NCBI GenBank assembly: GCA_037305845.1
Contig: CP147778.1
Location: 3,040,001-3,104,000 of the forward strand
Length of the DNA stretch: 64,000 nucleotides
Direction: 5' to 3'
DNA from: Candidatus Freyarchaeum deiterrae
GTDB lineage: Archaea; Asgardarchaeota; Jordiarchaeia; Jordiarchaeales; Jordiarchaeaceae
Shown: positions 224 to 25,890 of the stretch, in pieces
Numbering within the stretch: position 1 is the stretch's first letter
How the letters are laid out: every line of letters starts with the position of its first letter
Notes under the pieces: model-generated
Told to the model about the DNA's origin: nothing
What the model saw: the letters and a program-made list of their open reading frames with translations, nothing else
Databases searched by the model: none
Position numbers and translations under genes: made by a program

Positions 224-3175
224 ATGAACACAATGGGCAAAATAAAAGTCGGCGACCTCATAGGAGGACGATTTGAAGTACGCCGCATCCTCGGCGGCGA
301 AGGAAAAAGCGGAATGGGGACAGTCTACGCCTGCATAGACCACAAATCTGGAGCAGTTGTAGCCCTGAAAACCTTCCAAGACATTTACCTCAAAGACAAG
401 GAGATGAAGGATAGCTTCAAATTCGAAGCACTAGCTTGGACACAACTCGAAAGGCACCCAAACATAGTACAGGCAATGGGTTTTGAAGAGTTCGATTACC
501 GACCGTTCATCATCCTTGAATTTATCGCCCCCGACGAGGAAGGAAGGACTACCCTAACCCAACACCTCCAAAAACCCATCCCCCTCCAACAGACGCTGGA
601 GTGGGCCATACAGTTCTGCCGCGGGATGGAACACGCTGCAACCCACGGCGTGACACCCCACAGAGACATAAATCCGGGCAACATAATGATCACTAAAGAC
701 GGAACCCTGAAGATTACAGACTTCGGACTAGCAAAACTATGGGAGCAGAAGAAACCCAAAGCAGGCCAGAAGATTCAGGTAGATGAAGGACAACCCGGGC
801 TTACCTTCCTCAAGGTCTCCGATGAATATGTGGTGGCTGGCACGCCACCCTGGATGGCTCCTGAGCAATTCGAAGGCATAGCCGACACCAGAAGCGACAT
901 CTACAACTTCGGAATAGTGCTCTTCCAGATGGTCAACAAAGGCAAACTACCGTTCCAAGCCCAGACAGACGCAGAATACCACCAAGCCCACAAGACAAGG
1001 CCAGTACCCCAACTCAAAAGCAAACTGTTCCCGATAATCGAAAAGTGCCTGCAGAAAAACCCAAAGGACCGCTACCAAAACTTCCAAGAACTGAGAAAAG
1101 ACCTAGAAAAAATGTACCAAAAGGAAACCGGAAAAACCCCACCAAAACCACCAGAAAAAACAGAACTGGAAGCATGGGAACATAACAACCAAGGACTATC
1201 ATTCTATAATCTAGGACTGCTTAACGAAGCAACAAAAGAATACAAGGAGGCCATAAAAATAAACCCTGCTGATGCTGACGCTCACAGCAACTTGGGTAAC
1301 GCTCTAAAAGACAAGGGTCTGTTGGATGAGGCTATATGGGAATACACAGAAGCTCTGCGGATAAACCCCTCTGATGCTGACGCTCACAGCAACCTAGGTG
1401 TCGCCCTCAGAGGTAAGGGTCTACTGGACGAGGCAATACAGGAATACAGAAAAGCTCTGCGGATAAACCCCTCTGATGCTGACGCTCACAGCAACTTGGG
1501 TAACGCTCTAAAGGATAAAGGTCTGCTGGACGAGGCGATAGCGGAATACACAGAAGCGCTAAGAATAGAGCCTGGCCTCGCCCAAACTCACAGCAACCTA
1601 GGTAACGCTCTTAGTGATAAGGGACTGCTTGATGAAGCGATAGAGGAGTACAGAGAGGCTCTGCGGATAAATCCCTCTGATGCTGACGTTCACAGCAACC
1701 TAGGTGTCGCCCTCAGAGGTAAGGGTGGCCTCGATAAGGCGATAAAAGAATACAGAGAAGCGCTGAGGTTAAAGCCCGACCTCGCTGAAGCCCACAGCAA
1801 TCTGGGTAACGCTCTTAGTGATAAGGGTTTACACGAAGAAGCGATAAAAGAATGGAGGGAGGCTATAAGGTTAAAGCCCGACCTCGCCGACGCCCACCAC
1901 AACTTGGGGGTCGCCTTTAGTGATAAGGGTCTACTCGACGAAGCGATAAAGGAATACAGAGAAGCCATAACAATAAACCCTTACCATACTGACGCCCACT
2001 ATAACTTGGGTAACGCTCTTATTAACACCGGTCTACTTGATAAGGCAATACGGGAATACAGAGAAGCGCTGAGGTTAAAGCCCGACTTCGCTGAAGCTCA
2101 CAGCAACTTGGGTAACGCTCTTAGTGATAACGGTCTGCTGGATGAAGCGATAAAAGAATGGAAGGAGGCTATAAGGTTAAAGCCCGACCTCGCCGACGCC
2201 CACAGCAATCTGGGTAACGCTCTTAGTGATAAGGGTCTACCCGACGAAGCGATAAAGGAATACCAAGAAGCGCTGAGGTTAAAGCCCGACTTCGCCCAAG
2301 CTCACTACAACTTGGGTGTCGCCCTCAGGGGTAAGGGTCTAGTTGACGAGGCGATGAGAGAGTGGAGGGAGGCTCTGAGAATAAAGCCTGACTTCGCTGA
2401 AGCTCACAGCAATCTGGGTAACGCCTTTAGAAGTAAGGGTTTGCTTGACAACGCTATAAAAGAATACAGGGAAGCGCTGAGGTTAAAGCCTGACCTTGCT
2501 GAAGTCCACAGCCTCTTGGGTAACACTCTCAGCAGTAAGGGGTTGCTTGATGAGGCTATAAAAGAATACAGGGTGGCCATAAAGATAAAACCTGACTATG
2601 TCGAGGCCCACTATAACTTAGCGATCGCTCTTAGTAATAATGGGTTGCTTGAAGAGGCTATAAAGGAATACAGAGCAACTTTGAGGATAAAGCCTGACCT
2701 CGTCCAAGCTCACAGCAATCTGGGTAACGCTCTTAGTGATAAGGGTCTACTCGATGAGGCTATAAATCAATACAGGGAGGCTATAAAGATAAAGCCTGAC
2801 CTTGCTGAAGCTCACAGCAATCTGGGTAACGCTCTAAAGGATAAGGGCCTGCTGGATGAAGCAATACTGGAATACCGGGAGGCTTTAAAAATAAAACCAG
2901 ACGATGCCACAGCCCACTACAACTTGGGTGTCGCCCTTAGAGATAAAAATCTGTTCGACGAGGCAGTACAGGAATACAGAGAAACACTGAGAATAAACCC
3001 AGACTTAGCCCAGGCCTATTACAACCTTGGGATTGCACTTGAGGCTTTAGGAGACTTTAAGGGAGCCATTGAAGCGTACCAGAATTTCATAAAGCGAGCG
3101 CCGCCGCAGTATGCACAGCATTTTAAGCGGGCACGCCAAGCCATCAATACATTGAAAGGGATAGTAAGAGGATGA
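224..3175 (+). CDS. Hanks-type Ser/Thr protein kinase fused to 19 tandem TPR repeats
   Basis: Kinase motifs GEGKSGMGTVY, VALK, HRDINPGN, DFG, GTPPWMAPE, SDIYNFG. From about aa 318 there are 19 34-aa repeats of consensus A(D/E)AHSNLGNALxDKGLLDEAIxEYREALRxxP. Confidence 0.95.
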   Translation: MNTMGKIKVGDLIGGRFEVRRILGGEGKSGMGTVYACIDHKSGAVVALKTFQDIYLKDKEMKDSFKFEALAWTQLERHPNIVQAMGFEEFDYRPFIILEFIAPDEEGRTTLTQHLQKPIPLQQTLEWAIQFCRGMEHAATHGVTPHRDINPGNIMITKDGTLKITDFGLAKLWEQKKPKAGQKIQVDEGQPGLTFLKVSDEYVVAGTPPWMAPEQFEGIADTRSDIYNFGIVLFQMVNKGKLPFQAQTDAEYHQAHKTRPVPQLKSKLFPIIEKCLQKNPKDRYQNFQELRKDLEKMYQKETGKTPPKPPEKTELEAWEHNNQGLSFYNLGLLNEATKEYKEAIKINPADADAHSNLGNALKDKGLLDEAIWEYTEALRINPSDADAHSNLGVALRGKGLLDEAIQEYRKALRINPSDADAHSNLGNALKDKGLLDEAIAEYTEALRIEPGLAQTHSNLGNALSDKGLLDEAIEEYREALRINPSDADVHSNLGVALRGKGGLDKAIKEYREALRLKPDLAEAHSNLGNALSDKGLHEEAIKEWREAIRLKPDLADAHHNLGVAFSDKGLLDEAIKEYREAITINPYHTDAHYNLGNALINTGLLDKAIREYREALRLKPDFAEAHSNLGNALSDNGLLDEAIKEWKEAIRLKPDLADAHSNLGNALSDKGLPDEAIKEYQEALRLKPDFAQAHYNLGVALRGKGLVDEAMREWREALRIKPDFAEAHSNLGNAFRSKGLLDNAIKEYREALRLKPDLAEVHSLLGNTLSSKGLLDEAIKEYRVAIKIKPDYVEAHYNLAIALSNNGLLEEAIKEYRATLRIKPDLVQAHSNLGNALSDKGLLDEAINQYREAIKIKPDLAEAHSNLGNALKDKGLLDEAILEYREALKIKPDDATAHYNLGVALRDKNLFDEAVQEYRETLRINPDLAQAYYNLGIALEALGDFKGAIEAYQNFIKRAPPQYAQHFKRARQAINTLKGIVRG

Positions 3176-9156: not shown

Positions 9157-9864
9157 TCACATTTTTGTGGTAATTCCTAATTCCAGTCTCGTCCATCTGA
9201 ATCCGGGTATTTTCTTACTTTTTAGGTCTTTTTTGAACATGTAGAGTCTTGCGGGGCGGTGTACACCGAGTTTGTATTTCTCTGTAGGTTCGATTATTCC
9301 CATAGAGAATATTTTCTTTCTGAAATTTCTTTTATCTAGTTTCTCGCCTAGTATAACTTCGTAAACTTTTTGAAGCTCAGTTAGGGTAAAGAGTTCTGGC
9401 AGAAAGTCAAGGGCTATTGCGGTGTATTCCAGCTTGCTTTTTAGTCTCTGATGAGCGTACTTAATTATCTTCTCATGATCAAATGCTACGACAGGGAGTT
9501 CATAAACTGGGTGCCAGTCTACTTTTTCTGAAATTTTAATCTTTTCTGGATCCACCATCGCAAAGTAAGCGATTGTTACTATTCTTATACTAGGGTCTCT
9601 TTCTACTTCTCCATAGGTGTAGAGTTGCTCTAGGTGAAGGTTTTCAAAAATTCCTACTTTTTCCTTCAAAACCCTGATTGACGCTTCTTCGAGGTTTTCA
9701 TCTCTTTTTACGAATGTTCCGGGGAGTGCCCAATATTCCTCGCAGTTCGGGAAGCCTCTTTTTTTTAGTAGAACTTTTAAATCACCATCTTTTATTCCAA
9801 ATATGCACACACCCACTGTGACGTACACTTCTGATGTTTCAAGCTCATTTGTACTAGTAGACAC
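9157..9864 (-). CDS. nrtR: NrtR family Nudix + wHTH transcriptional regulator
   Basis: WALPGTFV Nudix-like box, LEQLYTYG...RDP, AFDH, FTLTELQKVYE, DKRNFRKK, HRPARLY; overlaps pncB. Confidence 0.92.
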   Translation of the reverse strand: MSTSTNELETSEVYVTVGVCIFGIKDGDLKVLLKKRGFPNCEEYWALPGTFVKRDENLEEASIRVLKEKVGIFENLHLEQLYTYGEVERDPSIRIVTIAYFAMVDPEKIKISEKVDWHPVYELPVVAFDHEKIIKYAHQRLKSKLEYTAIALDFLPELFTLTELQKVYEVILGEKLDKRNFRKKIFSMGIIEPTEKYKLGVHRPARLYMFKKDLKSKKIPGFRWTRLELGITTKM

Positions 9865-11023
9865 TTAGATCCACCTTCTCCAGTCTTGGATTGGGCCGAT
9901 AGGGTCTTCCCGTTTTATGTAAAGTTATGAATTCGTCGCCCTCAAAATAACCCATAATGTCAGAGGTTGCCTGAAATCGTTGGTCCGCGAAGCCGGCACC
10001 TATAAAATCGAAAAGTTTCAAATCATACTTTTTTTCGCCTAACACGAACGCTTCAACCTTTTTGGGATCGCTGAATCCGCTTGATAGTGCTATTCCTAAA
10101 TCAGGATATCCTTCATCATTAAATTCTCGTCTTGCAGCGGCTACTGCTTCCACGGTGACTCCTGTTCCCGTCCAGTATTTTCTTCCGTCGAATGGCAGTC
10201 CACCCTCTGCGACGACAGCTCCATTTGTGTCAAATCTCGGCCCCCAGAAATTGTCCCCTAATACCTCAGCAACTCGGAGAGTGTCTGTTATTTCCCTGTT
10301 GAATGTGTCCGCAAGGAAAATTCTAGGAACATCTTTAGGCATGTGTTTGTGGAATGCTTTCATAGTTTCAACAGCCGAATCCTCCTCTCCATACTTCGAA
10401 GCTATAGCTAGAACCAATGCGTGTGGTACTGTACCCACACCCTTCTGTCCAAACGTCGCTGCACCAATATCTGTTGAAGTTGAAGTTGCTCCACCCTCAT
10501 ATGCAGCTCTTGCTATTTTGGCATCCCACTCATATCCAAAATGTCTTGCCCCAAAATAGGATATCGGTCTGGGACCAAATTTACTTTTATTCATTATATT
10601 AACAAGTTCTTTAACATTAGCCTTGATTTTTTTCACATCTGGGTCGGTTTCATTATTCTCCTGGTCTGTTCTGCCCGATAGGATTGAAAGATACATAGTC
10701 TCTAACTCAATTAAATCCTGAACAGGGCCTTCGATAACCATTAGAGTTTCTTCGGGTTGATACTGAACTCCATCATGGAGAGCAAAAATTCTTCCATCAT
10801 GTTCCGCTAGTTTTGGACTGTACTTCATAATTGCAGCTATAGCTTCGTCTATCCCTCCGGTCACGCTGGGGCCTTTCCTAATAAAAACCTGATATCTAAC
10901 GTATGTGTTGATTCCTTCTTTTCTGATTATCTCCCCGCTTCTCAGGAAATACACGTCAGTGTGTGGTTCGTGTCTCGGTGGAAACTCAAAATCAGTTTTT
11001 CTTTCAACCCTCATTACATTCAC
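9854..11023 (-). CDS. pncB: Nicotinate phosphoribosyltransferase
   Basis: TDVYF, ELETMYL, FGARH, GTVPHAL, DTFN, RFDT and SSGF motifs. Confidence 0.88.
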   Translation of the reverse strand: MNVMRVERKTDFEFPPRHEPHTDVYFLRSGEIIRKEGINTYVRYQVFIRKGPSVTGGIDEAIAAIMKYSPKLAEHDGRIFALHDGVQYQPEETLMVIEGPVQDLIELETMYLSILSGRTDQENNETDPDVKKIKANVKELVNIMNKSKFGPRPISYFGARHFGYEWDAKIARAAYEGGATSTSTDIGAATFGQKGVGTVPHALVLAIASKYGEEDSAVETMKAFHKHMPKDVPRIFLADTFNREITDTLRVAEVLGDNFWGPRFDTNGAVVAEGGLPFDGRKYWTGTGVTVEAVAAARREFNDEGYPDLGIALSSGFSDPKKVEAFVLGEKKYDLKLFDFIGAGFADQRFQATSDIMGYFEGDEFITLHKTGRPYRPNPRLEKVDLSVY

Positions 11024-11299: not shown

Positions 11300-11923
11300 T
11301 TATTTTTCCTTGGTTTTTGGTTCTTTTTTGATTCTTTCTTCTTCTTGGGTGTGGAGTGTCATTAGAATTTTGGATTTGCCATTTCCGAGGATTGTTAGTT
11401 CATAGATGTAGTCTGCTGCTTCTTGTGTTTTTGGTCCTGGTGATATTTCTGTGATCTTCAAGTCGGGTGTCTCTGTTATTACGAGTTTTAAAAATATGTC
11501 GTACCCGTTTTTGTTTTCAATAATGATTTGCCTTTTATAGTCAACCGGCGTTGTACGGATTATTAGTTCGCCTACCTCAACTTCGGTTTTTTTGCCTTTA
11601 ATTCTGTCCTCAAACTTGCTTACGCAGAACACGCTCTTATCGATGATGCTTTGGGTTTCAAATTTTTTTGATTCAAAGCTTCCCTCGGTTTCGGTCGAAA
11701 GAAAGGGCAAGCCGCCCTTTAACATGGTTATGGAGCTCTTAGGAATATTGGTTGCTTCGGATATTTCAAAAACAAACTTTAAGGACGAATCTAATTTTAT
11801 TTCCAACTGTAGTGCTTCGTTTAACCAGTGTTTCAAATATATTTCGTGAATTTTTTTAACTTCAGCACTAACTTTCTGAATCGGCACAACAGCGGGTCGT
11901 CTCTGAGTAACAGTCAATTTCAT
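11300..11923 (-). CDS. Protein resembling the C-terminal half of DUF4139 family proteins
   Basis: Beta-rich; YKRQIIIENKNGYDIFLKLVITE and YIYELTILGNGKSKILMT resemble the DUF4139 C-terminal Ig-like part; GGAGG SD. Confidence 0.55.
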   Translation of the reverse strand: MKLTVTQRRPAVVPIQKVSAEVKKIHEIYLKHWLNEALQLEIKLDSSLKFVFEISEATNIPKSSITMLKGGLPFLSTETEGSFESKKFETQSIIDKSVFCVSKFEDRIKGKKTEVEVGELIIRTTPVDYKRQIIIENKNGYDIFLKLVITETPDLKITEISPGPKTQEAADYIYELTILGNGKSKILMTLHTQEEERIKKEPKTKEK

Positions 11924-11949
11924 TTTTGAACCTCCCTTCTTTCATACGT

Positions 11950-12675
11950 CTATCTCATTACCATTTTCAGGTTTTGCATCTCGTTCATCGCTTGACTCCT
12001 ACGCATAGAAGCCTTCCTTGTCTCAGTTTGTTGACCAGAAGGAGGAGTAGGATTAGGAAGACCTTCAGACATATCTATGGGCATTGGAGGGATTTCAAGT
12101 CCTAGATCGAATTCTGCTAGTGCAATATCTGAGTCGTAGGCAAAATTAGTGTTATTAATAATCGTTGCTGAAACATTAATTACTGCGGCTCCTTCGCCTG
12201 TAAGGTCTATTACCATTCTGGGTTCCCAGTAGATTCGGTTATCAAAAAGTATATATTTGATTTTTAGAGAGCAGGTTTTTTCGGTTTTGGAATCCACCCA
12301 TATTTTTACTTCGGCGAATTCATCCTGATACATACTGTAATAAATTGATTCACAAAGTTCCAAGAGCTGTTGCCTTTTATAAGGCAATCTTCTACTCTTA
12401 TCTATAATATCTCTGGAGACTTCCTGACGCGTCCTTATTTCTTCGTAAACAAATTCTGGCACTGGCTTTTTAATGTCTATTTGCTGCACATAAGCATCAT
12501 CGCAGTTTAATTCAACTTGTATCTGATTAATATCGAAAGAAGCTGGAATATCTTCAATTCTAAAGGTATTCATCCCTTTTACTAATTGCACCATTCCTTC
12601 ACGTTCAATCAAGGCACCGCCTTTATCAAAAATAATAACAGACGACACCTTGGGATTAAATGACTCAATAGACAT
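11950..12675 (-). CDS. Protein resembling the DUF4140/DUF4139 N-terminal half
   Basis: VSSVIIFDKGGALIEREG, IEDIPASFD, LKIKY...IYWEPRMVIDL, ATIINNT. Confidence 0.65.
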   Translation of the reverse strand: MSIESFNPKVSSVIIFDKGGALIEREGMVQLVKGMNTFRIEDIPASFDINQIQVELNCDDAYVQQIDIKKPVPEFVYEEIRTRQEVSRDIIDKSRRLPYKRQQLLELCESIYYSMYQDEFAEVKIWVDSKTEKTCSLKIKYILFDNRIYWEPRMVIDLTGEGAAVINVSATIINNTNFAYDSDIALAEFDLGLEIPPMPIDMSEGLPNPTPPSGQQTETRKASMRRSQAMNEMQNLKMVMR

Positions 12676-12928
12676 GTTTAGTATCCACCTCTATTCAAAA
12701 ACTTTCAATTCGCCGTAAGATAAATGGTCTATCTTACATTAAAACTTAGCCTCAGAAAAATGAACAATAGAAAAATATTGAGAAGAGATACTCCCACATA
12801 AATTTGTCAAGATTTATAAAAAACAAATTTATTATGCCTTTTTTAAACCACCCCTATCCTGCGTCTTGGTTGGTTCTACCCCCGCCCTCTTCCTTGTGGT
12901 TTTTCATCTTCCCCTTTCAGAGGATGTT

Positions 12929-13735
12929 TCACGCCCTACCCGGTTCCAGATCATCATCCATATCCTTAAGAAGCGGGGCACGTTTCCCTGCAAGGTTGGG
13001 GTTTATCTTTATAGCCTCATCGTAGCATTTTATCGCCTCATCGCGCTTTCCGAGATTATCCAATGCTGTGCCCTTGTTATACCATGCATCTGCATAGTTG
13101 GGGTCTATCTTTATCGCCTTATCGTAGCATTTTATCGCTTCATCGCGCTTTCCGAGATTATCCAATGCTGTGCCCTTGTTATACCATGCATCTGCATCTT
13201 TGGGGTTTATCTTTATAGCTTCATCGTAGCATTTTATCGCTTCATCGAATTTTCCGAGATCATACAACAATGCTGTGCCCTTGTTATACCATGCATCTGC
13301 ATCTTTGGGGTTTATCTTTATAGCCTCATCGTAGGATTCTATCGCCTCATTTGGCTTTACGGCACCAATCCTGAATCCAAATAAATCGGCCATCGTCTCT
13401 CCGAGCTTTTCGGCTTCAGGCCTAAACAATTCTGCGACCTTTTCTGCGACCCTTTGGTTCACCTCTTCGCGCTTTTTGGGGCCACCCTGTGGAATGGCCT
13501 TGTTAATCCTTGCATCTGTATGGTTGGGGTTTATCTTTAGAGCCTCATCGTAGCATTTTATCGCTTCATCGCGCTTTCCGAGACCATCCAATGCGTCGCC
13601 CTTGTTATACCATGCATCTGCATCTTTGGGGTTTATCTTTAGAGCCTCATCGTAGCATTTTATCGCCTCATCGTACTTTCCGAGCCTAGCCAACCCAATG
13701 CCCTTTTCAATCAATTCCTTTGCCGTTTTAGACAT
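12929..13735 (-). CDS. TPR-only protein, copy 1 (5 intact TPRs plus 1 interrupted by an insert)
   Basis: Repeats ADAWYNKGxALxxLGKxDEAIKCYDEAIKINP; start at ATG after AGGTGA SD (the ORF-track start at 13789 is an unlikely extension). Confidence 0.92.
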   Translation of the reverse strand: MSKTAKELIEKGIGLARLGKYDEAIKCYDEALKINPKDADAWYNKGDALDGLGKRDEAIKCYDEALKINPNHTDARINKAIPQGGPKKREEVNQRVAEKVAELFRPEAEKLGETMADLFGFRIGAVKPNEAIESYDEAIKINPKDADAWYNKGTALLYDLGKFDEAIKCYDEAIKINPKDADAWYNKGTALDNLGKRDEAIKCYDKAIKIDPNYADAWYNKGTALDNLGKRDEAIKCYDEAIKINPNLAGKRAPLLKDMDDDLEPGRA

Positions 13736-14293
13736 TTTCTTCACCTTTAACTCGTTATTAAAGAAAAATTTGCTGAACCAAACACACATACGTGTACGAA
13801 ATTCATATTCCCTCCTATTTCGGAGTTGTTAAGTAAGCGAGCTTTATTTTACTTTTATTCGCAATTTCAGCGATACACCTTAACTTAATATTTATCGCCG
13901 CCACCTCTCAACATCAAATAAATGATTTTTTCTTAAATCTTATATATAGATATATAACTCATTCTTATTTCTTTCGCAATTTTTTAGCTTCCTCTGCACT
14001 TGAAACGAAACCAACCATTTTTAATTTCGATTCAAGTTTCAAACACGCTTACAGAAAGATGATTCGCAAGAAAGCCCAAGTCCCCTTTAGGAGGGTGGAA
14101 GAATTGCGAGAGGCTCAAATACCGAGAAAAGAGGAAAGCGAATAATAGGGCTGGTTCACCCGACGAAGAAGAAAAGGGTGTGGAAGCCGTTAATCGGGCG
14201 GTGGCACACGCCCCACACTTCTTGAACAACAGAAGTGTAGAACCCCCAACCTTTCCCTTTTCAGAGGGTGTTTCACGCTCTACCGGTTCCAGA
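13736..14293. repeat. Conserved non-coding spacer, copy A (promoter/leader of TPR1 plus 3' region of TPR2)
   Basis: Near-identical to 15257-15810 by eye; the first ~310 bp also match 17587-17904; the end matches about 12905-12985. Confidence 0.95.
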
Positions 14294-15256
14294 TCATCCA
14301 CCCTTAAGAAGCTGGGCACGTTTCTCTGCGAGTTTGGGGTTTATCTTTATAGCCTCATCGTAGCATGCTATCGCCTCATCACGCTTCCCTAGATCAAACA
14401 ATGCTATGCCCTTGTATAACCATGCATCTGCGAGTTTGGGGTTTATCTTTATAGCCTCATCGTAGCATGCTATCGCCTCATCATACTTTCCGAGAAGAAG
14501 CAATGCATGGCCCTTGACAAACCATGTCCTTGCATCTTTGGGGTTTAGCTTTAGAGCCTCATCGAAGCATTCTATCGCCTCATTGAGCTTTCCGAAACCA
14601 TCCAATGCTGCGCCCTTGCCCAACCATGCATCTGCGAGTTTGGGGTTTATCTTTAGAGCCTTATCGTAGCATGCTATCGCCTCATCGAGTTTTCCGAGAT
14701 GAAACAATGCAACGCCCTTGTTATTCCATGCTGCTGCATCTTTGGGGTTTAGCTCTAGAACCTCATCGAAGCATTCTATCGCCTCATCATGCTTTCCGAG
14801 ACCATCCAATGCTGCGCCCTTGCCCAACCATGCATCTGCATATTTGGGGTTTATCTTTAGAGCCTTATCGTAGCATGCTATCGCCTCATCGAGTTTTCTG
14901 AGACCAAGCAATGCATTGCCCTTGTTAACCCATTGCTCATCGGGCTTTTCGAGACCAAACAATGCTGCGCCCATGTCTCTCGCCTTATCGGGATTTCCTA
15001 TACCAAACACTGCAATGAACTTGTTATCATTTGCCTCTTTATATTTGGGTTTTATCTTTATAGCCTCATCGAAGCATTCTATCGCCTCATCATGCTTTCC
15101 GAGATCAAGCAATGCAACGCCCTTGTTATTCCATGCCTCTGCATCTTTGGGTTTTATCTTTATAGCCTCATCGAAGCATTCTATCGCCTCATCATGCTTT
15201 CCGAGACCAAGCAATGCAACGCCCTTTTTAAGCCATTCCTCTGCCTTTTTAACCAT
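14294..15256 (-). CDS. TPR-only protein, copy 2 (8 intact TPRs plus 1 degenerate)
   Basis: Same repeat family; ends AEKRAQLLKGG. Confidence 0.92.
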   Translation of the reverse strand: MVKKAEEWLKKGVALLGLGKHDEAIECFDEAIKIKPKDAEAWNNKGVALLDLGKHDEAIECFDEAIKIKPKYKEANDNKFIAVFGIGNPDKARDMGAALFGLEKPDEQWVNKGNALLGLRKLDEAIACYDKALKINPKYADAWLGKGAALDGLGKHDEAIECFDEVLELNPKDAAAWNNKGVALFHLGKLDEAIACYDKALKINPKLADAWLGKGAALDGFGKLNEAIECFDEALKLNPKDARTWFVKGHALLLLGKYDEAIACYDEAIKINPKLADAWLYKGIALFDLGKRDEAIACYDEAIKINPKLAEKRAQLLKGG

Positions 15257-15810
15257 TTTCATCACCTATAACTCGTTATTGAAGAAAAATTTGCTGAACC
15301 AAACACACATACGTGTACGAAATTCATATTCCCTCCTATTTCGGAGTTGTTAAGTAAGCGGGCTTTATTTTACTTTTATTCTCAATTTCAGCGATGCACC
15401 TTAACTTGATATTTATCTCCGCTACCTCTCAGCGTCAAATAAATGATTTTTTTTCTTGAAGCTTATATAGCTTTATAACTTGTTCTTATTTCTTTCGAAA
15501 TTTTTTTGCTTCCTCTGCACTCGAAACGAAACCAACCATTTTTAATTTCGTCAAGTTTCAAACACGCTTACAGAAAGATGATTAGCAAGAAAGCCCAAGT
15601 CCCCTTTAGGACGGGGGAAGAATTGCGAGAAGTTCAAATATCAAGAAAAGAGGAAAGCGAATAATAGGGCTTGCTCACCCGACGAAGAAGAAAAGGGTGC
15701 GGAAGCCGTTAATCGGGCGGTGGCACACGCCCCACACTTCTAACAACAGAAGTGTAGAACCCCCAACCTTTCCCCTTTCAGAGGATGTTTCACGCTCTAC
15801 CGGTTCCAGA
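15257..15810. repeat. Conserved non-coding spacer, copy B
   Basis: Aligns with 13736-14293 with scattered substitutions and small indels. Confidence 0.95.
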
Positions 15811-17586
15811 TCATCCACCCTTAAGAAGCTGGGCACGTTTCTCTGCGAGTTTGGGGTTTATCTTTATAGCATTATCAATGCATTTTATCGCCTCATCGCG
15901 CTTTCCGAGACCAAGCAATGCATCGCCCTTGTTAACCCATGCACCTGCATGGTTGGGGTTTATCTTTATCGCCTCATCGTAGCATGCTACCGCCTCATCG
16001 CGCTTTCCGAGACCACTCAATGCTACGCCCTTGCTATACCAAGCCTCTTCATATTTGGGGTTTATCTTTATCGCCTCATCGTAGCATTTTATCGCCTCAT
16101 TGCGCTTTCCGAGACCACTCAATGCTACGCCCTTGCTATACCATGCCCATGCATATTCGGGTTCTATCTTTATCGCCTCATCGTAGCATTCTACCGCCTC
16201 ATCGCCCTTTCCGAGACCACGCAATGCGTTGCCCTTGTCAACCCATGGACCTGCATTTTTGGGGTTTATCTTTATCGCCTCCTCGTAGCATTTTATCGCC
16301 TCATCGCCCTTTCCGAGATCAAGCAATGCAGCGCCCTTTTTAGTCCATGCATCTGCATGGTTGGGGTTTATCTTTATCGCCTCCTCGTAGCATTTTATCG
16401 CCTCATCATGCTTTCCGAGACAATTCAATGCATTGCCCTTGTTATACCATGCCTCTGCATCGTTGGGGTTTATCTTTATAGCCTTATCAAAGCGTTCTAT
16501 TGCCTCCTCGGGATTTGAGAAATAACCCAAGGATTCACTGAACTTTACTGCAGCGTCTTTAAAGGCCTTGTCAAAAATGCCCTTTTCAAGGGCCTTGTCA
16601 AAAGTGCCATTGAGTCCAAGAACCTCCTCCAAAATGTCTGTGAATTCCTCCTCATCACCGAACTCTTCGAGACCACCCAATGCAATGCCCTTGTCTATTG
16701 CCTCCTCGGGTTTTCCGAGACCACGCAATGCAATGTCCTTGTTATTCCTTGCATTTGCATAGTTGGGGTCTATCTTTATCGCCTCATCGTAGTATTTTAT
16801 CGCCTCCTCGGGCTTTCCGAGATCACCCAATGCTACGCCCTTGTTATTCCATGCATTTGCATTGTTGGGGTTTATCTTTATCGCCTCATCGTAGCATTCT
16901 ATCGCCTCCTCGGGCTTTCCGAGACCATAAAATGCTACGCCCTTGTTATTCCATGCCTCTGCATTTTTGGGGTTTATCTTTATAGCCTCATCGTAGCATT
17001 TTATCGCCTCATCATGCTTTCCGAGATCACCCAATGCTACGCCCTTGTTATACCATGCACCTGCATGGTTGGGGTTTATCTTTATCGCCTCATCGTAGCA
17101 TTCTATCGCCTCATTGCGCTTTCCGAGATCACTCAATGCATTGCCCTTGTTATACCATGGCTCTTCATGGTTGGGGTTTATCTTTATAACTTTATCATAG
17201 CATTCTATTGCCTCCTCGCGCTTTCCGAGATCATAAAATGCATTGCCCTTGTTATACCATGCTTCTTCAGAGTTGGGGAATATATTTGTATACTCATCGT
17301 AGCATTTTATTGCCTCCTCGGGCTTTCCGAGATCAAGCAATAAATCGCCCTTGATATGCCATGTCCCTGCATCTTTGGGGTTTATCCTTGTAACCTCGTC
17401 GTAGCATTTTATCTGCTCCTCGGGCTTTCCGAGACCAGTCAATGCAATGCCCTTGTATAACCATGCCTCTGCATAGTTGGGGTCTATCTCTATAACCTTA
17501 TCAAAGCATTTTATTGCCTCATCGTACTTTCTGTGCAGATACAAACCATAGCCCTTTTTATACAATTCCTTTGCCTTTTTATCCAT
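15811..17586 (-). CDS. TPR-only protein, copy 3 (14 intact TPRs plus 1 interrupted by an acidic insert)
   Basis: Same repeat family; insert EEFGDEEEFTDILEEVLG...; ends AEKRAQLLKGG. Confidence 0.92.
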   Translation of the reverse strand: MDKKAKELYKKGYGLYLHRKYDEAIKCFDKVIEIDPNYAEAWLYKGIALTGLGKPEEQIKCYDEVTRINPKDAGTWHIKGDLLLDLGKPEEAIKCYDEYTNIFPNSEEAWYNKGNAFYDLGKREEAIECYDKVIKINPNHEEPWYNKGNALSDLGKRNEAIECYDEAIKINPNHAGAWYNKGVALGDLGKHDEAIKCYDEAIKINPKNAEAWNNKGVAFYGLGKPEEAIECYDEAIKINPNNANAWNNKGVALGDLGKPEEAIKYYDEAIKIDPNYANARNNKDIALRGLGKPEEAIDKGIALGGLEEFGDEEEFTDILEEVLGLNGTFDKALEKGIFDKAFKDAAVKFSESLGYFSNPEEAIERFDKAIKINPNDAEAWYNKGNALNCLGKHDEAIKCYEEAIKINPNHADAWTKKGAALLDLGKGDEAIKCYEEAIKINPKNAGPWVDKGNALRGLGKGDEAVECYDEAIKIEPEYAWAWYSKGVALSGLGKRNEAIKCYDEAIKINPKYEEAWYSKGVALSGLGKRDEAVACYDEAIKINPNHAGAWVNKGDALLGLGKRDEAIKCIDNAIKINPKLAEKRAQLLKGG

Positions 17587-17904
17587 TTTCTTCACCTATA
17601 ACTCGTTATTAAAGAGAAATTTGCTGAACCAAACACACATATGTGTGTATGAGATTCACATTCTCTCCTATTTCGGAGTTGTTAAGTAAGCGAGCTTTAT
17701 TTTACTTTTATTCGCAATTTCAGCGATACACCTTAAGTTAATATTTATCTCCGCTATCTCTCAACATCAAATAAATGATTTTTTTCTTAAAAATTAAATA
17801 TAGAGAGATATGTAACTTATTCTTATTTCTTTCGCAATTTTTTAGCTTCCTCTGCACTTGAAACGAAACCAACTATTTTTAATTTCGGTTCAAGCTTCAA
17901 ACAC
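17587..17904. repeat. Conserved non-coding spacer, copy C (promoter/leader only)
   Basis: Matches 13736-14046 up to CAAG(T/C)TTCAAACAC. Confidence 0.92.
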
Positions 17905-18084
17905 TTTTACTATTAAACACTACTCCAAAAAATCACTCTGAACTCTTTACCCGACCATCATTAGAAGTGATTCTCCTTGAGTCCAAGAAATAGAGGTGGC
18001 AATTCAAAAGTAGAAAAGCTTCACACCAAAACAGTTTCAACCCTGAATCTAGAACCTAAGAAATAGCTTAAACACCCCCGCTTT

Positions 18085-18303: not shown

Positions 18304-18738
18304 TTACAATTTTCCAATGTCCTCGTTCCATAGTTGAGGGTTGCCCTGTATGAACTTATTCATTAATTGCTTACATTCGTCAAGGTTCAGGTCGATTACT
18401 TCAACTCCATGTGATTCCATAAATTCTCTTGCGCCAGCGAAGGTTTCAGATTCGCCGACAATCATTTTCTTAATTCCGAACTGAACGACCGCTCCGGCGC
18501 AAAGGAAACAGGGCATTAACGTGGAATAAAGAATGGTATCGCTATATTTGCCGATTCTTCCCGCGTTTCGTAGGCAATCAATTTCTGCGTGCATAATTGG
18601 GTCATTCTCTTGTACACGTTTATTATGTCCTCTCCCTACAATTTTTCTGCCCTTCACTAGGGCTGAACCAATCGGAATCCCGCCTTCACTTAGTCCCTGT
18701 TTCGCTTCTTCAATAGCAGCTCTCATGAATGGGTCCAT
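18304..18738 (-). CDS. Zn-dependent cytosine/nucleoside deaminase (yeast Fcy1-like)
   Basis: EGGIPIG, HAE, PCFLC, and C-terminal WNEDIG. Confidence 0.9.
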   Translation of the reverse strand: MDPFMRAAIEEAKQGLSEGGIPIGSALVKGRKIVGRGHNKRVQENDPIMHAEIDCLRNAGRIGKYSDTILYSTLMPCFLCAGAVVQFGIKKMIVGESETFAGAREFMESHGVEVIDLNLDECKQLMNKFIQGNPQLWNEDIGKL

Positions 18739-18767
18739 AGTTTTACCTCCACCAATTTAGTTAAGGT

Positions 18768-19421
18768 TTAGATTTCGAATACTTTTGTCTTGCAGTTTGG
18801 AGGGTTGTAGTTTTCAACTTTGATGTCGAAGCTTCTTTTTAAAATTGTTTCAGCTATTCCGGCGAAAATTAGAGTTCTAACGCAGGCGATGTTCCCAAAG
18901 ATGTCATAAACCCCCTCATTGCTAAGAGCTTGACACGCATCCATGAAGGAACATTTTCCACAAAGTTGCACATCAACATCCCCACTATCATGGTTTGTGA
19001 GAATCATCTCTTCGTCTTTCACGAAACCTATCTGAACTAGCAGAGCCTTGTATTTGGATAGGACATCGTAGAGACTTTTTGAACCTTTTAAGTACTCCGT
19101 CAGCCCTAATTTATCGACAAGAGCTTTCGGGCCTCCCTTCGCCAAACGTCTGGAAATCACTCCCGTGGAACCAATGGTTGTACTCTCCGCCTTTCCTATA
19201 CCGTAAATAAGAGCATTTTCAACCGGATACTCATCAACAATTCCAACAAGTTGATTCTCAAGGTCGTCTATCGTGTCGAAGTGTAATATGACATTGAAGT
19301 TATTCTGAACGTATTTTGAGGTTTGGTCTAGAACAATTTTCAGAACATCATCCATAATAATGGGCTCTTTCCTAATACCCTCTGCTATTGCTCTTAAAAT
19401 TTGCTCATTTCCTGCTGGCAT
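18768..19421 (-). CDS. V4R-like Cys-containing protein, paralog of 50279-50980
   Basis: CSFMDAC...ACVR...NCK; shares YP..NAL.YG..K.E....GSTGV with 50279. Confidence 0.6.
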   Translation of the reverse strand: MPAGNEQILRAIAEGIRKEPIIMDDVLKIVLDQTSKYVQNNFNVILHFDTIDDLENQLVGIVDEYPVENALIYGIGKAESTTIGSTGVISRRLAKGGPKALVDKLGLTEYLKGSKSLYDVLSKYKALLVQIGFVKDEEMILTNHDSGDVDVQLCGKCSFMDACQALSNEGVYDIFGNIACVRTLIFAGIAETILKRSFDIKVENYNPPNCKTKVFEI

Positions 19422-19814
19422 AAAATCATCTCTGTTTGTTCACTAATAACTTTCTAATTAAAGATAAACCACACAAATATATATTCATGACCTCTTTTAT
19501 TGAATGGCTTGATAAGACCACAGATGGAGCAATTCGATTAGATTCAAAAACTTCAGGTCTCATAGGACTTGAGGCTATCCTCCACTCGGACGTGATTTAA
19601 GGTGTTAAGACTAAAAATAATGTAGAGATTAATATTTTCTTAAACTTCTGTCAGGAGTGGTAGTTTTAACTCTCAGAATTGCCTAAGAAGAGCTTTTAAA
19701 ATTGCCCCTTTTAATTCCTATCCGTGAAATAATACGGCTAATATCTGTGCTGTTTGTTGAAAAAACTTGGATAAGCAATTTTAATAAAAAAAGAATTGAA
19801 GAAGAAATTATATT

Positions 19815-20363
19815 CTAATATCTTCTTCTACTATTTCTACTATCGCCTCTATCTCTACCGCCGCCGCCGCCTCTATCTCTACCGCCGCCGCCACCGCGAT
19901 AACCGCCGCCGCCACCGCGATAACCGCCGCCGCCGAATCCACCGGATCGGCTGTCACCGTATCTTGGACGGAAGGTTCGCTCCTGTTCATAGACTTTGTC
20001 GGAGAGATTATTGTCCAGTTTAACCTCGGCGGGAGCGTTTTCGTCGCTTTCTTCCATGCTTCCATATTTTCCTAGGTTCAGTCTCAAGGAGCCTTTGAAA
20101 ACAGTGGTGTACGCATTGGTTAGCTTGTAAACTTTATCAGTTTGCATTTTATCAATGTCGTCATTCCACAGGGTTAACAGTATGCTCCCCGTTTCGTCCC
20201 CTACTACAGCTTCGGTAACTCTCAAATTCTCGCCGGTTTTTTTCGAAACAATATCTCTTATCTCATTCTTTGAGTTGCATCTAACTTTTAGGTTGATGCT
20301 TCTGAGACCAGGTTTCAGCTCATCTACAATTTTAAATTCTTCGGATTTAGACATTTCACTCAT
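19815..20363 (-). CDS. Single OB-fold ssDNA-binding protein (SSB/RPA-like) with RGG/YRG tail
   Basis: VGDETGSILLTLW, NAYT.VFKG.LRLNLGKYG; C-terminal Gly/Arg repeats. Confidence 0.9.
   Translation of the reverse strand: MSEMSKSEEFKIVDELKPGLRSINLKVRCNSKNEIRDIVSKKTGENLRVTEAVVGDETGSILLTLWNDDIDKMQTDKVYKLTNAYTTVFKGSLRLNLGKYGSMEESDENAPAEVKLDNNLSDKVYEQERTFRPRYGDSRSGGFGGGGYRGGGGGYRGGGGGRDRGGGGGRDRGDSRNSRRRY
19845..19935. repeat. 21-bp tandem repeats encoding the RGG tail
   Basis: Units ccgccgccgcctctatctcta and ccgccgccgccaccgcgataa. Confidence 0.85.
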
Positions 20364-23499: not shown

Positions 23500-25890
23500 G
23501 TGGCGGAGACGGTCACATTCCTTGTGATGGGGATACCTTCCGAGAAGCTTGTTGAACTTATAGAGCCCAATCTTGATTGGTGGAATAAGAAGAGATTTGG
23601 TGTATTTCTTGAACTTTTTAAGAAAGAGTTGAAAAATGTCGACGAGGGCACCCAAAGAATTATTCTCGGCAAGCTTAACGAGAACACTTTATCTGAAGTT
23701 TTTGGGTTAGCGGTGAACATTTTCCCAATTCAGGATGCTTTACTGCCTACAGGGGAAGTTGATCTTCTAGAATTAAACAGAGTGGTTCCAGAAACCTTAA
23801 CTCACAGCCTCCTGAATGTTTTGTCCCTTTATGGAGATTTGGGTGATCTTAAGGTTGTTGGTGAGGCTTTCAGGATTTCGATTAAAAACTTTAGAGAAAA
23901 ACTCTTCGGTTCGCTGAGCAGCCCGGGATTATCGAAAATTATGGAGGAGCTCGTTAACATAGACCCGGAAAATTACGTTATTTTTTCATCGAGTTTTGAA
24001 AAAGCACAGGCTGGTGGGGTTCATGTGGAAGGGCTTGGAAAGAGGAGCGGGAGCGTACCTGAATTCACCCCCAGTGTGGTGAAACCTGAATCGGAGATTA
24101 GGAAACTTTTTAAATTGCCTAATAATGTCATTAGAATTCCGGGAATAGGCGAAAGCAACCAAATTAAGGATGAGCGTGTTCTCAATATTTCGGAGTTTCC
24201 TTGCTTTTTTGAAGGAAAAGAGTCAAAAGATTTGAGAGCAGAAAATCTGAAGAGCAGTTTCTGCAAAATACTTCTTCCACTAAATCCCAGTATTACTGAC
24301 GTGTTAGACGATGCTGATTTTCGCGAAAGCTTGTTAGAGATAGAAAAGATACATCTAAATCAGCTTACCAGCCAGATGGTTTACGATCCAGACCCTTTCC
24401 GATTTATGGAGAAAGAAGAAAAATTAAGAGTGCTAGTTTTCTTAGAGCACTTGAAGAGAGATATCATCAATCCCCTTAGCACAGAAAATAAGAACGCGTT
24501 ATTAACCCTCCTCTCTATTATTGAGGGGAGAATAATTCCCTGCGAACGCACTTTAAACGAACTGTTAACAATTAAACCGGTCAGGAATAAACCACTACAA
24601 TTCGAGTACTACTCCCAACTGGGACATCACTTCCTACTGAACGGGGATCTAGAAAAATCTGAGGAGAGCATTAGGGAGGCTCATTCACACGCGGAAGATG
24701 GGGATCAGGCTATTTTTCTACAAATTCTAGAGGCATTGATAAAAATTAGGAAGGAAGAATTTGTTGAGGCTGTCGAACAGTTACGTAAATGCTACAGGAA
24801 TACTGATACGCCTAAACTAAAAGGAGTCTCATTATACTATACCGGGATGGTATATTATACTCTAGAGGGTTTTCAAGAGGCTTACCAATTTTTCGAAGAT
24901 GCGCAGAGTTTGCTAAAAGCTGATTATGATATTGCTGCTATTCAGGGTAAAAGCGGAGCCTGTGCAATAAATCTCAAAATGTACGAGGAAGCCTTTCAAG
25001 AATTTAAGAAACTTGAGTACCTTCTTAAAAATATGAACCATAAAGAGTTCTCAGCCGCCGCCTATGAGGCACTTGGAAGCGTGCTCTCAATCACGGAGAA
25101 TTTTGATGAAGCCCTGAAGTATTATGGAATGGCTTTAGTAATAGACCAAGAACTAAAAGATGACAAATCCATTTCGGAGGACTACAGCAATATTGGAACA
25201 TTCTATTACAAGAAGAGGAGGCTTGATGACGCCTTAAAGTACTACGCGAGGGCACTAGAAATTAAAAAGAAAATGAACGACAAACGAAAAACAGCCATGG
25301 AATACAATAATATGGGGGTCGCTCTAAAAGCGAAAGGCAACTTAAGCGGAGCCCTACAGCACTTCGAGCAGGCCCTAAAACTGAATGAAGAGATAGGAAG
25401 CACACAAGCCGTGGCAACTAATTGTAGTAACATCGCCTTGGTTTTGAGGGAATCAGGTAAGGGAAAGGAAGCTTTCACTTATCTTGAAAGAGCATCTAGT
25501 TTAAACGAAGAACTAGGAAACCTCGAAATGGAGGCGGAGAACTACACCGAAATGGGCAAAATTAGGGCTGATGAAAAAGATTTAGATTCATCCCTAGAAT
25601 TTTTCGAGAAAGCTCTCAAGATTAACAAAGACCTCGGAAACAAGGAGGAGATAATAGAAGACTATTCTAACATGGGATTAATTCTAATGGCTAAGGGCGA
25701 AATCCATAGCGCGGTCGCCTACTTCGAACTCTGTCTCAAACTCTCAGAAGAAATAAATTACCTTAAGTGGTCGGAATCAGCACTCCCCACAATATTCAAA
25801 TCTTATAGCTTTCTAAAGAAAAAGGAACCCGGAAAAACCTTCTATCTCAGAATACTCGAAAAATTCCCACAACTAGCCAAACAATTATAA
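23500..25890 (+). CDS. Large protein: unrecognised N-terminal region plus C-terminal ~40-aa TPR repeats
   Basis: YSNIG/YNNMG/CSNIA/YSNMG repeats with ALxIxxELG spacing. Confidence 0.85.
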   Translation: MAETVTFLVMGIPSEKLVELIEPNLDWWNKKRFGVFLELFKKELKNVDEGTQRIILGKLNENTLSEVFGLAVNIFPIQDALLPTGEVDLLELNRVVPETLTHSLLNVLSLYGDLGDLKVVGEAFRISIKNFREKLFGSLSSPGLSKIMEELVNIDPENYVIFSSSFEKAQAGGVHVEGLGKRSGSVPEFTPSVVKPESEIRKLFKLPNNVIRIPGIGESNQIKDERVLNISEFPCFFEGKESKDLRAENLKSSFCKILLPLNPSITDVLDDADFRESLLEIEKIHLNQLTSQMVYDPDPFRFMEKEEKLRVLVFLEHLKRDIINPLSTENKNALLTLLSIIEGRIIPCERTLNELLTIKPVRNKPLQFEYYSQLGHHFLLNGDLEKSEESIREAHSHAEDGDQAIFLQILEALIKIRKEEFVEAVEQLRKCYRNTDTPKLKGVSLYYTGMVYYTLEGFQEAYQFFEDAQSLLKADYDIAAIQGKSGACAINLKMYEEAFQEFKKLEYLLKNMNHKEFSAAAYEALGSVLSITENFDEALKYYGMALVIDQELKDDKSISEDYSNIGTFYYKKRRLDDALKYYARALEIKKKMNDKRKTAMEYNNMGVALKAKGNLSGALQHFEQALKLNEEIGSTQAVATNCSNIALVLRESGKGKEAFTYLERASSLNEELGNLEMEAENYTEMGKIRADEKDLDSSLEFFEKALKINKDLGNKEEIIEDYSNMGLILMAKGEIHSAVAYFELCLKLSEEINYLKWSESALPTIFKSYSFLKKKEPGKTFYLRILEKFPQLAKQL

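What the first reader, a model, noticed from the sequence alone, without database searches (positions are those of the whole stretch)
12905..17904. Tandem TPR cassette array: conserved non-coding spacers around shuffled, hypervariable TPR genes (candidate diversifying receptor locus)
Seen: three TPR-only genes with 5, 8 and 14 intact repeats sit between ~555-bp non-coding spacers that are nearly identical, so the non-coding DNA is better conserved than the coding DNA. Within the 102-bp repeats, scaffold codons (aag ggc, gca, ctc gga aag, gag gcg ata, ata aac ccc) are nearly invariant even at wobble positions. A few helix-A codons vary heavily at positions 1-2 with a mostly fixed third base. 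After ttg: agt/ggt/cgt/ctt/aat/act/gat/ttt. Next codon: gat/ggt/tgt/aat/cat/ctt. Before aag: aac/gac/agc/atc/tac/ggc/gtc. Established: helix-A residues line the TPR ligand groove, and fungal NLR repeat domains show concerted evolution plus diversified ligand positions. Inference: an archaeal repeat-shuffling system generating binding repertoires, possibly for non-self or virus sensing.
Basis: partly seen in the sequence, partly recalled or inferred. Interest (0 to 1): 0.85.

Follow-up and report, generated by a model that had tools for sequence, protein, structure and literature searches.

The report
Positively selected Asgard TPR gene array
An Asgard archaeon carries three tandem genes, plus a fourth copy elsewhere, made only of near-identical protein-binding (TPR) repeats whose ligand-gripping positions evolve about five times faster than neutral, the pattern known from fungal immune receptors but here without any signalling domain.

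Summary
Real. Three minus-strand TPR-only genes (5, 8, 14 repeats) lie in a complete 3.58-Mb Asgard genome, by size Freyarchaeum deiterrae; a fourth paralogue shares the upstream region. Positive selection holds: M2a vs M1a LRT 94, omega 5.4 at TPR positions 2,5,6,9,12,13,17,22,34 (six are the known ligand-contact positions); tree-free test p=6e-5; recombination-null simulations reach at most 12; four other TPR genes of the genome show none. Repeats recombine (PHI-like p=5e-4), and their number changed since the triplication. Corrections: the spacers are not specially conserved (5-10% diverged). Each is a ~315-bp upstream region plus a ~200-bp IS605/TnpB-derived miniature element with a broken right end; the third has only the upstream part. 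No reverse transcriptase, and silent adenines are invariant, so no DGR. Contigs of four runs show essentially no variants, so ongoing shuffling is not shown. Weaker versions occur in two other Asgard genomes. It works like fungal/bacterial NLR repeats with high internal conservation but is not an NLR; ligand and immune role are inferred. The scan noted the paralogue and a bacterial NLR case before.

The parts
12929..13735 (-). TPR-only gene g1, 268 aa: 5 repeats (one 35 aa), broken-repeat insert 13301-13519, C-cap read on about 10 codons further than in g2/g3
13736..14052 (-). Upstream (promoter/5'UTR-like) region P1, with SD-like AGGTGA before the ATG; ends at the TTAC target site 14049-14052
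   Evidence: promoter function inferred
14053..14255 (+). IS200/IS605-family (tnpB/IS1341-type) miniature element, copy 1; right-end hairpin cut off at the junction with the gene tail
14256..14293 (-). Short 3' tail of g2, shared by all three units
14294..15256 (-). TPR-only gene g2, 320 aa: 8 repeats, insert 14942-15040 made of two truncated helix-A pieces; AlphaFold model is a canonical TPR superhelix
15257..15571 (-). Upstream region P2 ending at TTAC 15568-15571
15572..15772 (+). Miniature IS605-type element, copy 2, right end truncated at the same point
15773..15810 (-). Short 3' tail of g3
15811..17586 (-). TPR-only gene g3, 591 aa: 8 repeats, insert 16459-16758, 6 repeats, C-cap identical to g2 over 60 nt
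17587..17994 (-). Upstream region P3 with an empty TTAC site at 17907-17910; this ~400 bp is 75% identical to the upstream region of the fourth paralogue (G000:C1:456161-456877, 6 repeats)

Best explanation
A young, lineage-specific family of four soluble TPR-only binding proteins. One gene with its upstream region was triplicated in tandem; the junction runs through a selfish IS605-type miniature element. The 102-bp repeats are kept alike and reassorted by ordinary recombination (unequal crossing-over, slippage, gene conversion), with no dedicated enzyme. Selection keeps the frames open and the TPR core fixed while favouring amino-acid change at the groove positions, so each gene presents a different string of binding residues. 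Shown: anatomy, positive selection at groove positions, recombination signal, intact frames. Inferred: expression, protein binding through the groove, and the driver. I think the most likely driver is a changing foreign ligand (virus, plasmid or competitor proteins) that these effector-less proteins bind and sequester, or hand to a partner in trans (about 0.45-0.5 for this last step).
For: M2a vs M1a LRT 94.1, omega 5.4, sites 2,5,6,9,12,13,17,22,34; independently significant in g2 (31.5), g3 (32.1) and the distant paralogue (14.3); LRT 0-1.4 in four other TPR genes of the genome. 19 null simulations with strong recombination gave LRT at most 12.3. Tree-free count with positions fixed beforehand from PMC1261162 (2,5,6,9,12,13 contact ligand in HOP): ratio 2.5, p=6e-5. 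Positional counterparts (first, second and last repeats) differ at 6-9.5 of ~14.6 groove non-synonymous sites but only 2-5 of ~20.5 silent sites. 24 distinct groove codes in 26 repeats; no stop where ~6 are expected (P~0.002, rough). PHI-like p=5e-4; identical tracts of 40-61 nt within and between genes. Model pLDDT 88.9, best matches consensus TPR superhelices. No hydrophobic segment. Similar, weaker signatures in two other Asgard genomes.
Against: No ligand, effector domain, NOD domain or defence neighbours. Non-groove sites change fast too (ratio 0.6-0.9; about half of sites in the omega=1 class), which points to some relaxation; positions 17 and 22 lie outside the groove. No variants in contigs of four runs. 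The control TPR genes are older and partly saturated, so they have less power to show selection.
Confidence: 0.7

Rival explanations
1. Recent amplification from a single repeat followed by divergence and decay under relaxed constraint (the amplification-differentiation cycle described for beta-propellers); the groove looks variable only because it is the least constrained face.
For: Low silent divergence fits recent amplification (PMC9218822); broken-repeat inserts, an altered C-cap and an extra codon in g1; high non-groove dN/dS; not found in five congeners.
Against: Relaxation gives omega up to 1, not 5; null simulations gave pS 0.31-0.42 and LRT at most 12 against the observed 0.16 and 94; no stops and all inserts in frame; the same sites recur in the unlinked paralogue.
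Confidence: 0.15
2. Positive selection is real but serves a host function: paralogues tuned to different endogenous partners (adaptors of the kinase-TPR and GTPase signalling proteins of this genome), not foreign ligands.
For: The genome has 15 multi-TPR genes, among them kinase-TPR and longin-wHTH-TPR genes 10-17 kb away; TPR grooves commonly bind host peptides (PMC1261162).
Against: Host partners change slowly; the TPRs fused to kinases show no positive selection; the family was not found in congeners that share the housekeeping TPR genes.
Confidence: 0.2
3. A diversity-generating retroelement or other targeted mutator writes the NNT/NNC codons.
For: Fixed third bases at positions 6, 12, 13 resemble AAY-derived DGR codons; a beta-helix gene of the same genome shows an NNC position too.
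Against: No RT (PF00078, TIGR04416) or Avd (PF22296) in a complete genome; silent third-position adenines are invariant in 85 of 87 codons, which adenine-specific mutagenesis would not leave; no template copy; constant third bases are expected from the low silent rate.
Confidence: 0.03
4. Assembly artefact of a repetitive region.
For: No contig spans the whole array.
Against: The units differ by 5-10% in spacers and carry unique inserts; unique pieces of every unit are found without differences, at flank-like depth, in four runs of two studies; the Freyarchaeia genome was curated and checked with long reads (PMC11291895).
Confidence: 0.02

Closest known systems
[quoted passage not shown] 2014, PMC4986451
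   Same: Near-identical repeats, repeat-number change, concerted evolution, positive selection on the concave helical face.
   Different: No NB-ARC/NACHT or effector domain; the strict criterion (85% amino-acid identity over 100 aa) is not met (77-81%); allelic polymorphism not seen; whole-gene tandem triplication; archaeal.
Bacterial and archaeal NLR-like proteins with 80-90% identical TPR/WD repeats (bioRxiv 10.1101/2020.01.06.895854); WRAP and other recently amplified beta-propellers (PMC9218822)
   Same: Prokaryotic repeats of about 89% DNA identity, rapid turnover, proposed role in immunity.
   Different: There the regime was proposed by analogy and the repeats are fused to STAND ATPases; here site-level selection is measured and the repeats stand alone.
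Brown-algal NB-ARC-TPR and ROCO-LRR genes (PMC3341825)
   Same: Repeat-wise shuffling, birth and death of paralogues, diversifying selection on the binding face.
   Different: One exon per repeat and signalling domains there; no introns or signalling domains here.
Vertebrate IFIT cluster (from memory, not tested here)
   Same: TPR-only proteins in a tandem cluster that act by binding, without a catalytic domain.
   Different: IFIT repeats are divergent and bind viral RNA in a basic pocket; the groove here is rich in Asp/Gly/Tyr/Leu/Asn; no homology claimed.
IS200/IS605 (IS1341-type, tnpB-only) elements and their miniature derivatives
   Same: The spacer element joins the two ends of two full tnpB elements of this genome; all 13 copies start after TTAC; subterminal hairpins.
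   Different: The two array copies lack the right-end hairpin; no Y1 transposase (PF01797) found in the genome.

Membership tests
TPR superhelix proteins | 34-residue helix-turn-helix repeats with the TPR consensus, stacked into a superhelix | tested here: met
   Pfam TPR_1; AlphaFold model and Foldseek matches to CTPR and OGT
NLR / STAND receptors with conserved repeats | Central NB-ARC or NACHT domain | tested here: not met
   None in the genes or the window; only weak STAND-like hits more than 0.25 Mb away
NLR / STAND receptors with conserved repeats | N-terminal effector domain or amyloid signalling motif | tested here: not met
   Proteins begin with the first TPR 4-5 residues after the Met; no convincing ORF in the upstream region
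NLR / STAND receptors with conserved repeats | High internal conservation, 85% amino-acid identity over 100 aa | tested here: not met
   Best 81% (g2), 77% (g3), 56% (g1); 89% at DNA level over 300 nt
NLR / STAND receptors with conserved repeats | Positive selection at concave-face positions | tested here: met
   positions assigned by TPR numbering from PMC1261162, not by measuring surfaces on the model
NLR / STAND receptors with conserved repeats | Exchange between repeats (concerted evolution) | tested here: met
   PHI-like p=5e-4, shared tracts, repeats of different genes mixed in the tree; recent amplification can explain part of the homogeneity
NLR / STAND receptors with conserved repeats | Repeat-number polymorphism between strains | tested here: inconclusive
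   Number differs between paralogues; no variant joints in short-read contigs of four runs, probably one wetland, and contigs drop rare forms
NLR / STAND receptors with conserved repeats | Non-self recognition or cell-death output | not testable with these tools
   needs experiments
Diversity-generating retroelement target | Reverse transcriptase and Avd in the genome | tested here: not met
Diversity-generating retroelement target | Template repeat and adenine-specific variation | tested here: not met
   silent A invariant 85/87; no non-coding copy of the repeat
IS200/IS605 miniature element (spacer part) | Ends shared with a full tnpB element, fixed target tetranucleotide on the left, dispersed copies | tested here: met
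   two full tnpB parents, nine further copies, TTAC before all 13
IS200/IS605 miniature element (spacer part) | Intact right-end hairpin and a TnpA in trans | tested here: not met
   hairpin present in a dispersed copy (z -3.45), lost in the array copy; PF01797 not found

The most novel reading that the evidence does not exclude
Asgard archaea repeatedly build effector-less, antibody-like TPR binder repertoires under an arms race with their viruses or mobile elements, using the repeat-homogenisation-plus-groove-selection regime known from eukaryotic innate receptors; this locus and the G007 tandem are independent instances, and the binders act by sequestering foreign proteins or by feeding a kinase or STAND partner in trans.
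Probability: 0.3. Interest if true: 0.85.

Novelty: new variant of a known kind. Interest (0 to 1): 0.6.

Why it matters
It gives site-level evidence that the evolutionary regime of fungal, algal and plant immune-receptor repeats also acts in an Asgard archaeon, the group closest to eukaryotes, and on genes that have no signalling domain. My searches of the open library found no paper that describes this locus or positive selection on archaeal TPR repeats. The four small soluble proteins, with 24 different groove codes on one scaffold, are easy to express, so the question 'what do Asgard variable repeats recognise?' becomes testable. The limits are that the regime itself is known and that ligand and function remain unknown.

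Tried and rejected
DGR: rejected. Spacer as a structured RNA or recombination cassette: no Rfam match above chance; it resolves into upstream region plus MITE. MITE as a source of TnpB guide RNA against the TPR genes: considered because its right end abuts the gene tail, but the end hairpin is cut off and nothing supports it. First null simulation discarded: the optimiser had not converged; real data and simulations were redone. Orthologues: array, upstream region and both flanking genes not found with these queries in five congeneric draft genomes; no exact scaffold pattern in JGI metagenomes, no relative in viral contigs; best protein hits are unrelated TPR proteins of at most about 55% identity. 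The best bacterial hit shows no selection signature. No RNA holder listed, so expression is untested. The sigma-70 promoter scan is uninformative for archaea. PADLOC hits are generic TPR matches. Paper supplements held no locus data. No complex prediction was run, since no partner is defined.
Full report
Source. The window lies at 3,040,001-3,104,000 of a single-contig genome of 3,576,204 bases. Size, completeness and the wetland origin of the runs that hold it match the complete 3.58-Mbp genome of Freyarchaeum deiterrae (Asgard; PMC11291895), which was curated by hand and checked with long reads. The identification is my inference. The paper on its mobile elements and defence systems does not mention TPR genes (PMC11529989).

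Anatomy. Three minus-strand ORFs consist only of TPRs: g1 (268 aa, 5 repeats), g2 (320 aa, 8) and g3 (591 aa, 14). Each starts just behind an SD-like AGGTGA, has no hydrophobic segment, and ends in a shared cap (60 identical nt in g2 and g3). Each is interrupted once by a broken repeat that has lost Trp4 and Gly8, followed by an in-frame insert of about 73, 33 or 100 residues built from repeat fragments and short local duplications; the searches showed no outside source for them. The AlphaFold model of g2 (pLDDT 88.9) is a regular TPR superhelix with low confidence only in the insert; its best structural matches are consensus TPR proteins and OGT. A fourth paralogue with 6 repeats lies at 456,161-456,877 and shares about 400 bp of upstream DNA at 75% identity.

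The spacers. They are composite. The gene-proximal ~315 bp occurs before all three genes (6.5-9.7% divergence) and before the paralogue. The next ~200 bp occurs only in the two internal spacers (4.9% divergence) but also at nine other places in the genome, and it is the joined left and right end of two full tnpB-bearing elements at 2.43 and 3.25 Mb. All 13 copies begin after TTAC, as expected for the IS200/IS605 family (established knowledge). In the array both copies lose the right-end hairpin at the same base and run, over a 3-base microhomology, into the gene tail; before g3 the TTAC site is empty. So the duplication junction lies inside the element. Either a unit with the element was duplicated and the intact outer copy later excised, or the element inserted after a first duplication and a deletion removed its end; unequal crossing-over then gave the third unit (inference). 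No Y1 transposase was found. The spacers therefore date the triplication; they are not shown to be a functional frame.

Selection. Among 26 exact 102-bp repeats, silent diversity is 0.13 at scaffold codons, while non-synonymous diversity at the six positions that contact ligand in HOP co-crystals (2,5,6,9,12,13; PMC1261162) is 0.52. Because recombination can fake such results I ran two checks. Null data simulated without positive selection and with a new tree every 1 or 6 codons gave LRT of at most 12.3 in 19 runs. A tree-free count of the minimum number of changes per codon column, with the groove positions fixed in advance, gave a ratio of 2.5 (p=6e-5), again significant in g2, g3 and the paralogue and in none of seven control genes. 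Silent sites are not suppressed: between the array and the paralogue pS is 0.22 and the upstream region differs by 23%. The frames are kept open: no stop where about six would be expected. Caveats: controls are older and partly saturated; non-groove sites are also fast (ratio 0.6-0.9); positions 17 and 22 are not groove positions.

Shuffling. A PHI-like test gives p=5e-4; exact tracts of 40-61 nt are shared between non-adjacent repeats and between genes; g2 contains a duplicated two-repeat block; repeats of different genes mix in the tree. Repeat number went to 5, 8 and 14 while the spacers diverged by under 10%. This is what generic unequal crossing-over and conversion produce. A DGR is excluded: no RT or Avd in the complete genome, and silent adenines are invariant in 85 of 87 codons. 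Contigs of four runs from two studies cover all 30 bins, reproduce the unique pieces of each unit without differences, and show one possible substitution in the coding part and no credible repeat-to-repeat joints. That rules against an artefact and gives no sign of present-day variation, but short-read contigs from probably one site are a weak test.

Distribution. The family and both flanking genes were not found in five congeneric drafts. Of 57 TPR genes fetched from Asgard and other genomes, three have silent diversity below 0.3. Two are Asgard: a tandem of TPR genes in G007 (same order, other family; LRT 18.6, positions 12 and 13) and a TPR-plus-unknown-domain gene in G146 (LRT 11.5, within the null range). 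They were picked as the extremes, so they are leads, but they suggest that the regime recurs independently and is uncommon.

How it most likely works. Shown: soluble TPR solenoids whose groove residues are driven to differ (24 codes in 26 repeats), on a scaffold kept uniform by recombination. Inferred: each protein binds extended peptides along the groove, as TPRs do; lacking any output domain it acts by sequestration or as an adaptor. Sustained omega near 5, lineage-restricted birth and copy-number change are typical of conflict genes, so I favour foreign ligands, at roughly even odds against host-partner tuning or decay taken together.

Comparison and verdict. It works like the highly conserved TPR/ANK/WD repeats of fungal NLRs (PMC4986451) and their prokaryotic counterparts (bioRxiv 2020.01.06.895854; PMC9218822), but it is not an NLR: no NOD, no effector, and it falls just short of the published 85% identity rule. 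New variant of a known kind: stand-alone, archaeal, with measured site-level selection. Interest 0.6.

Noticed in passing
window 224-3175 (+), and G000:C1:3036445-3039717 just before the window: Ser/Thr kinase with about 19 TPRs, a second kinase-TPR gene and a longin-wHTH-TPR gene; their repeats are of another type (HxNLG), silent sites near saturation (pS 0.65), no positive selection in the two kinase genes.
   Followed up: partly
G000:C1:456161-456877: Fourth paralogue with the same upstream region and the same selection signature; a frameshifted HEPN-like gene remnant (judged by eye) lies just upstream and a tnpB gene 1.7 kb downstream.
   Followed up: yes
G000:C1 about 3552300-3555200 and 364600-368700: Surface beta-helix (NosD/PbH1-like) proteins with 66-72-bp repeats, conserved scaffold codons and one NNC position with pS 0 and pN 0.47; overall pS 0.24, so a weaker version of the same pattern.
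   Followed up: partly
G000:C1:2434938-2436326, 3247898-3249294 and nine ~200-bp copies (three within 274891-277685): A tnpB-only IS605-type family with many miniature derivatives and about ten tnpB genes in all, but no Y1 transposase found in the complete genome.
   Followed up: partly
L115:7918-10108 (G007:C23): Tandem of three TPR genes (zinc ribbon plus one TPR; 11 TPRs; at least 5 TPRs) in another family of the same order, with near-identical repeats and selection at positions 12 and 13.
   Followed up: partly
L116:5462-8023 (G146:C3): 853-aa Asgard protein: nine near-identical TPRs (pS 0.10) fused to about 500 residues without a Pfam family; candidate sensor-effector.
   Followed up: partly
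window 9157-11023 (-): NrtR (Nudix-wHTH) regulator next to a nicotinate phosphoribosyltransferase-like gene: NAD salvage pair.
   Followed up: no
window 11300-12675 (-) and 18304-19421 (-): Flanks of the array: a DUF4140-like gene with an unknown partner downstream; a cytosine-deaminase-family gene and an unknown ORF upstream. The two tested were not found in five congeners, so the array may sit in a lineage-specific patch.
   Followed up: partly
window 19796-20065: GC-rich 21-24-bp tandem repeats at the 3' end of an OB-fold (SSB-like) gene, coding an RGG-rich tail.
   Followed up: no
window 31663-36864 (+): 1733-aa ORF with internal repeats about 1.2 kb apart (73-74% identical pieces); not examined.
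   Followed up: no
window 23500-25890 (+): 796-aa protein with a divergent C-terminal TPR/SNAP-like array, unrelated to the young family.
   Followed up: no
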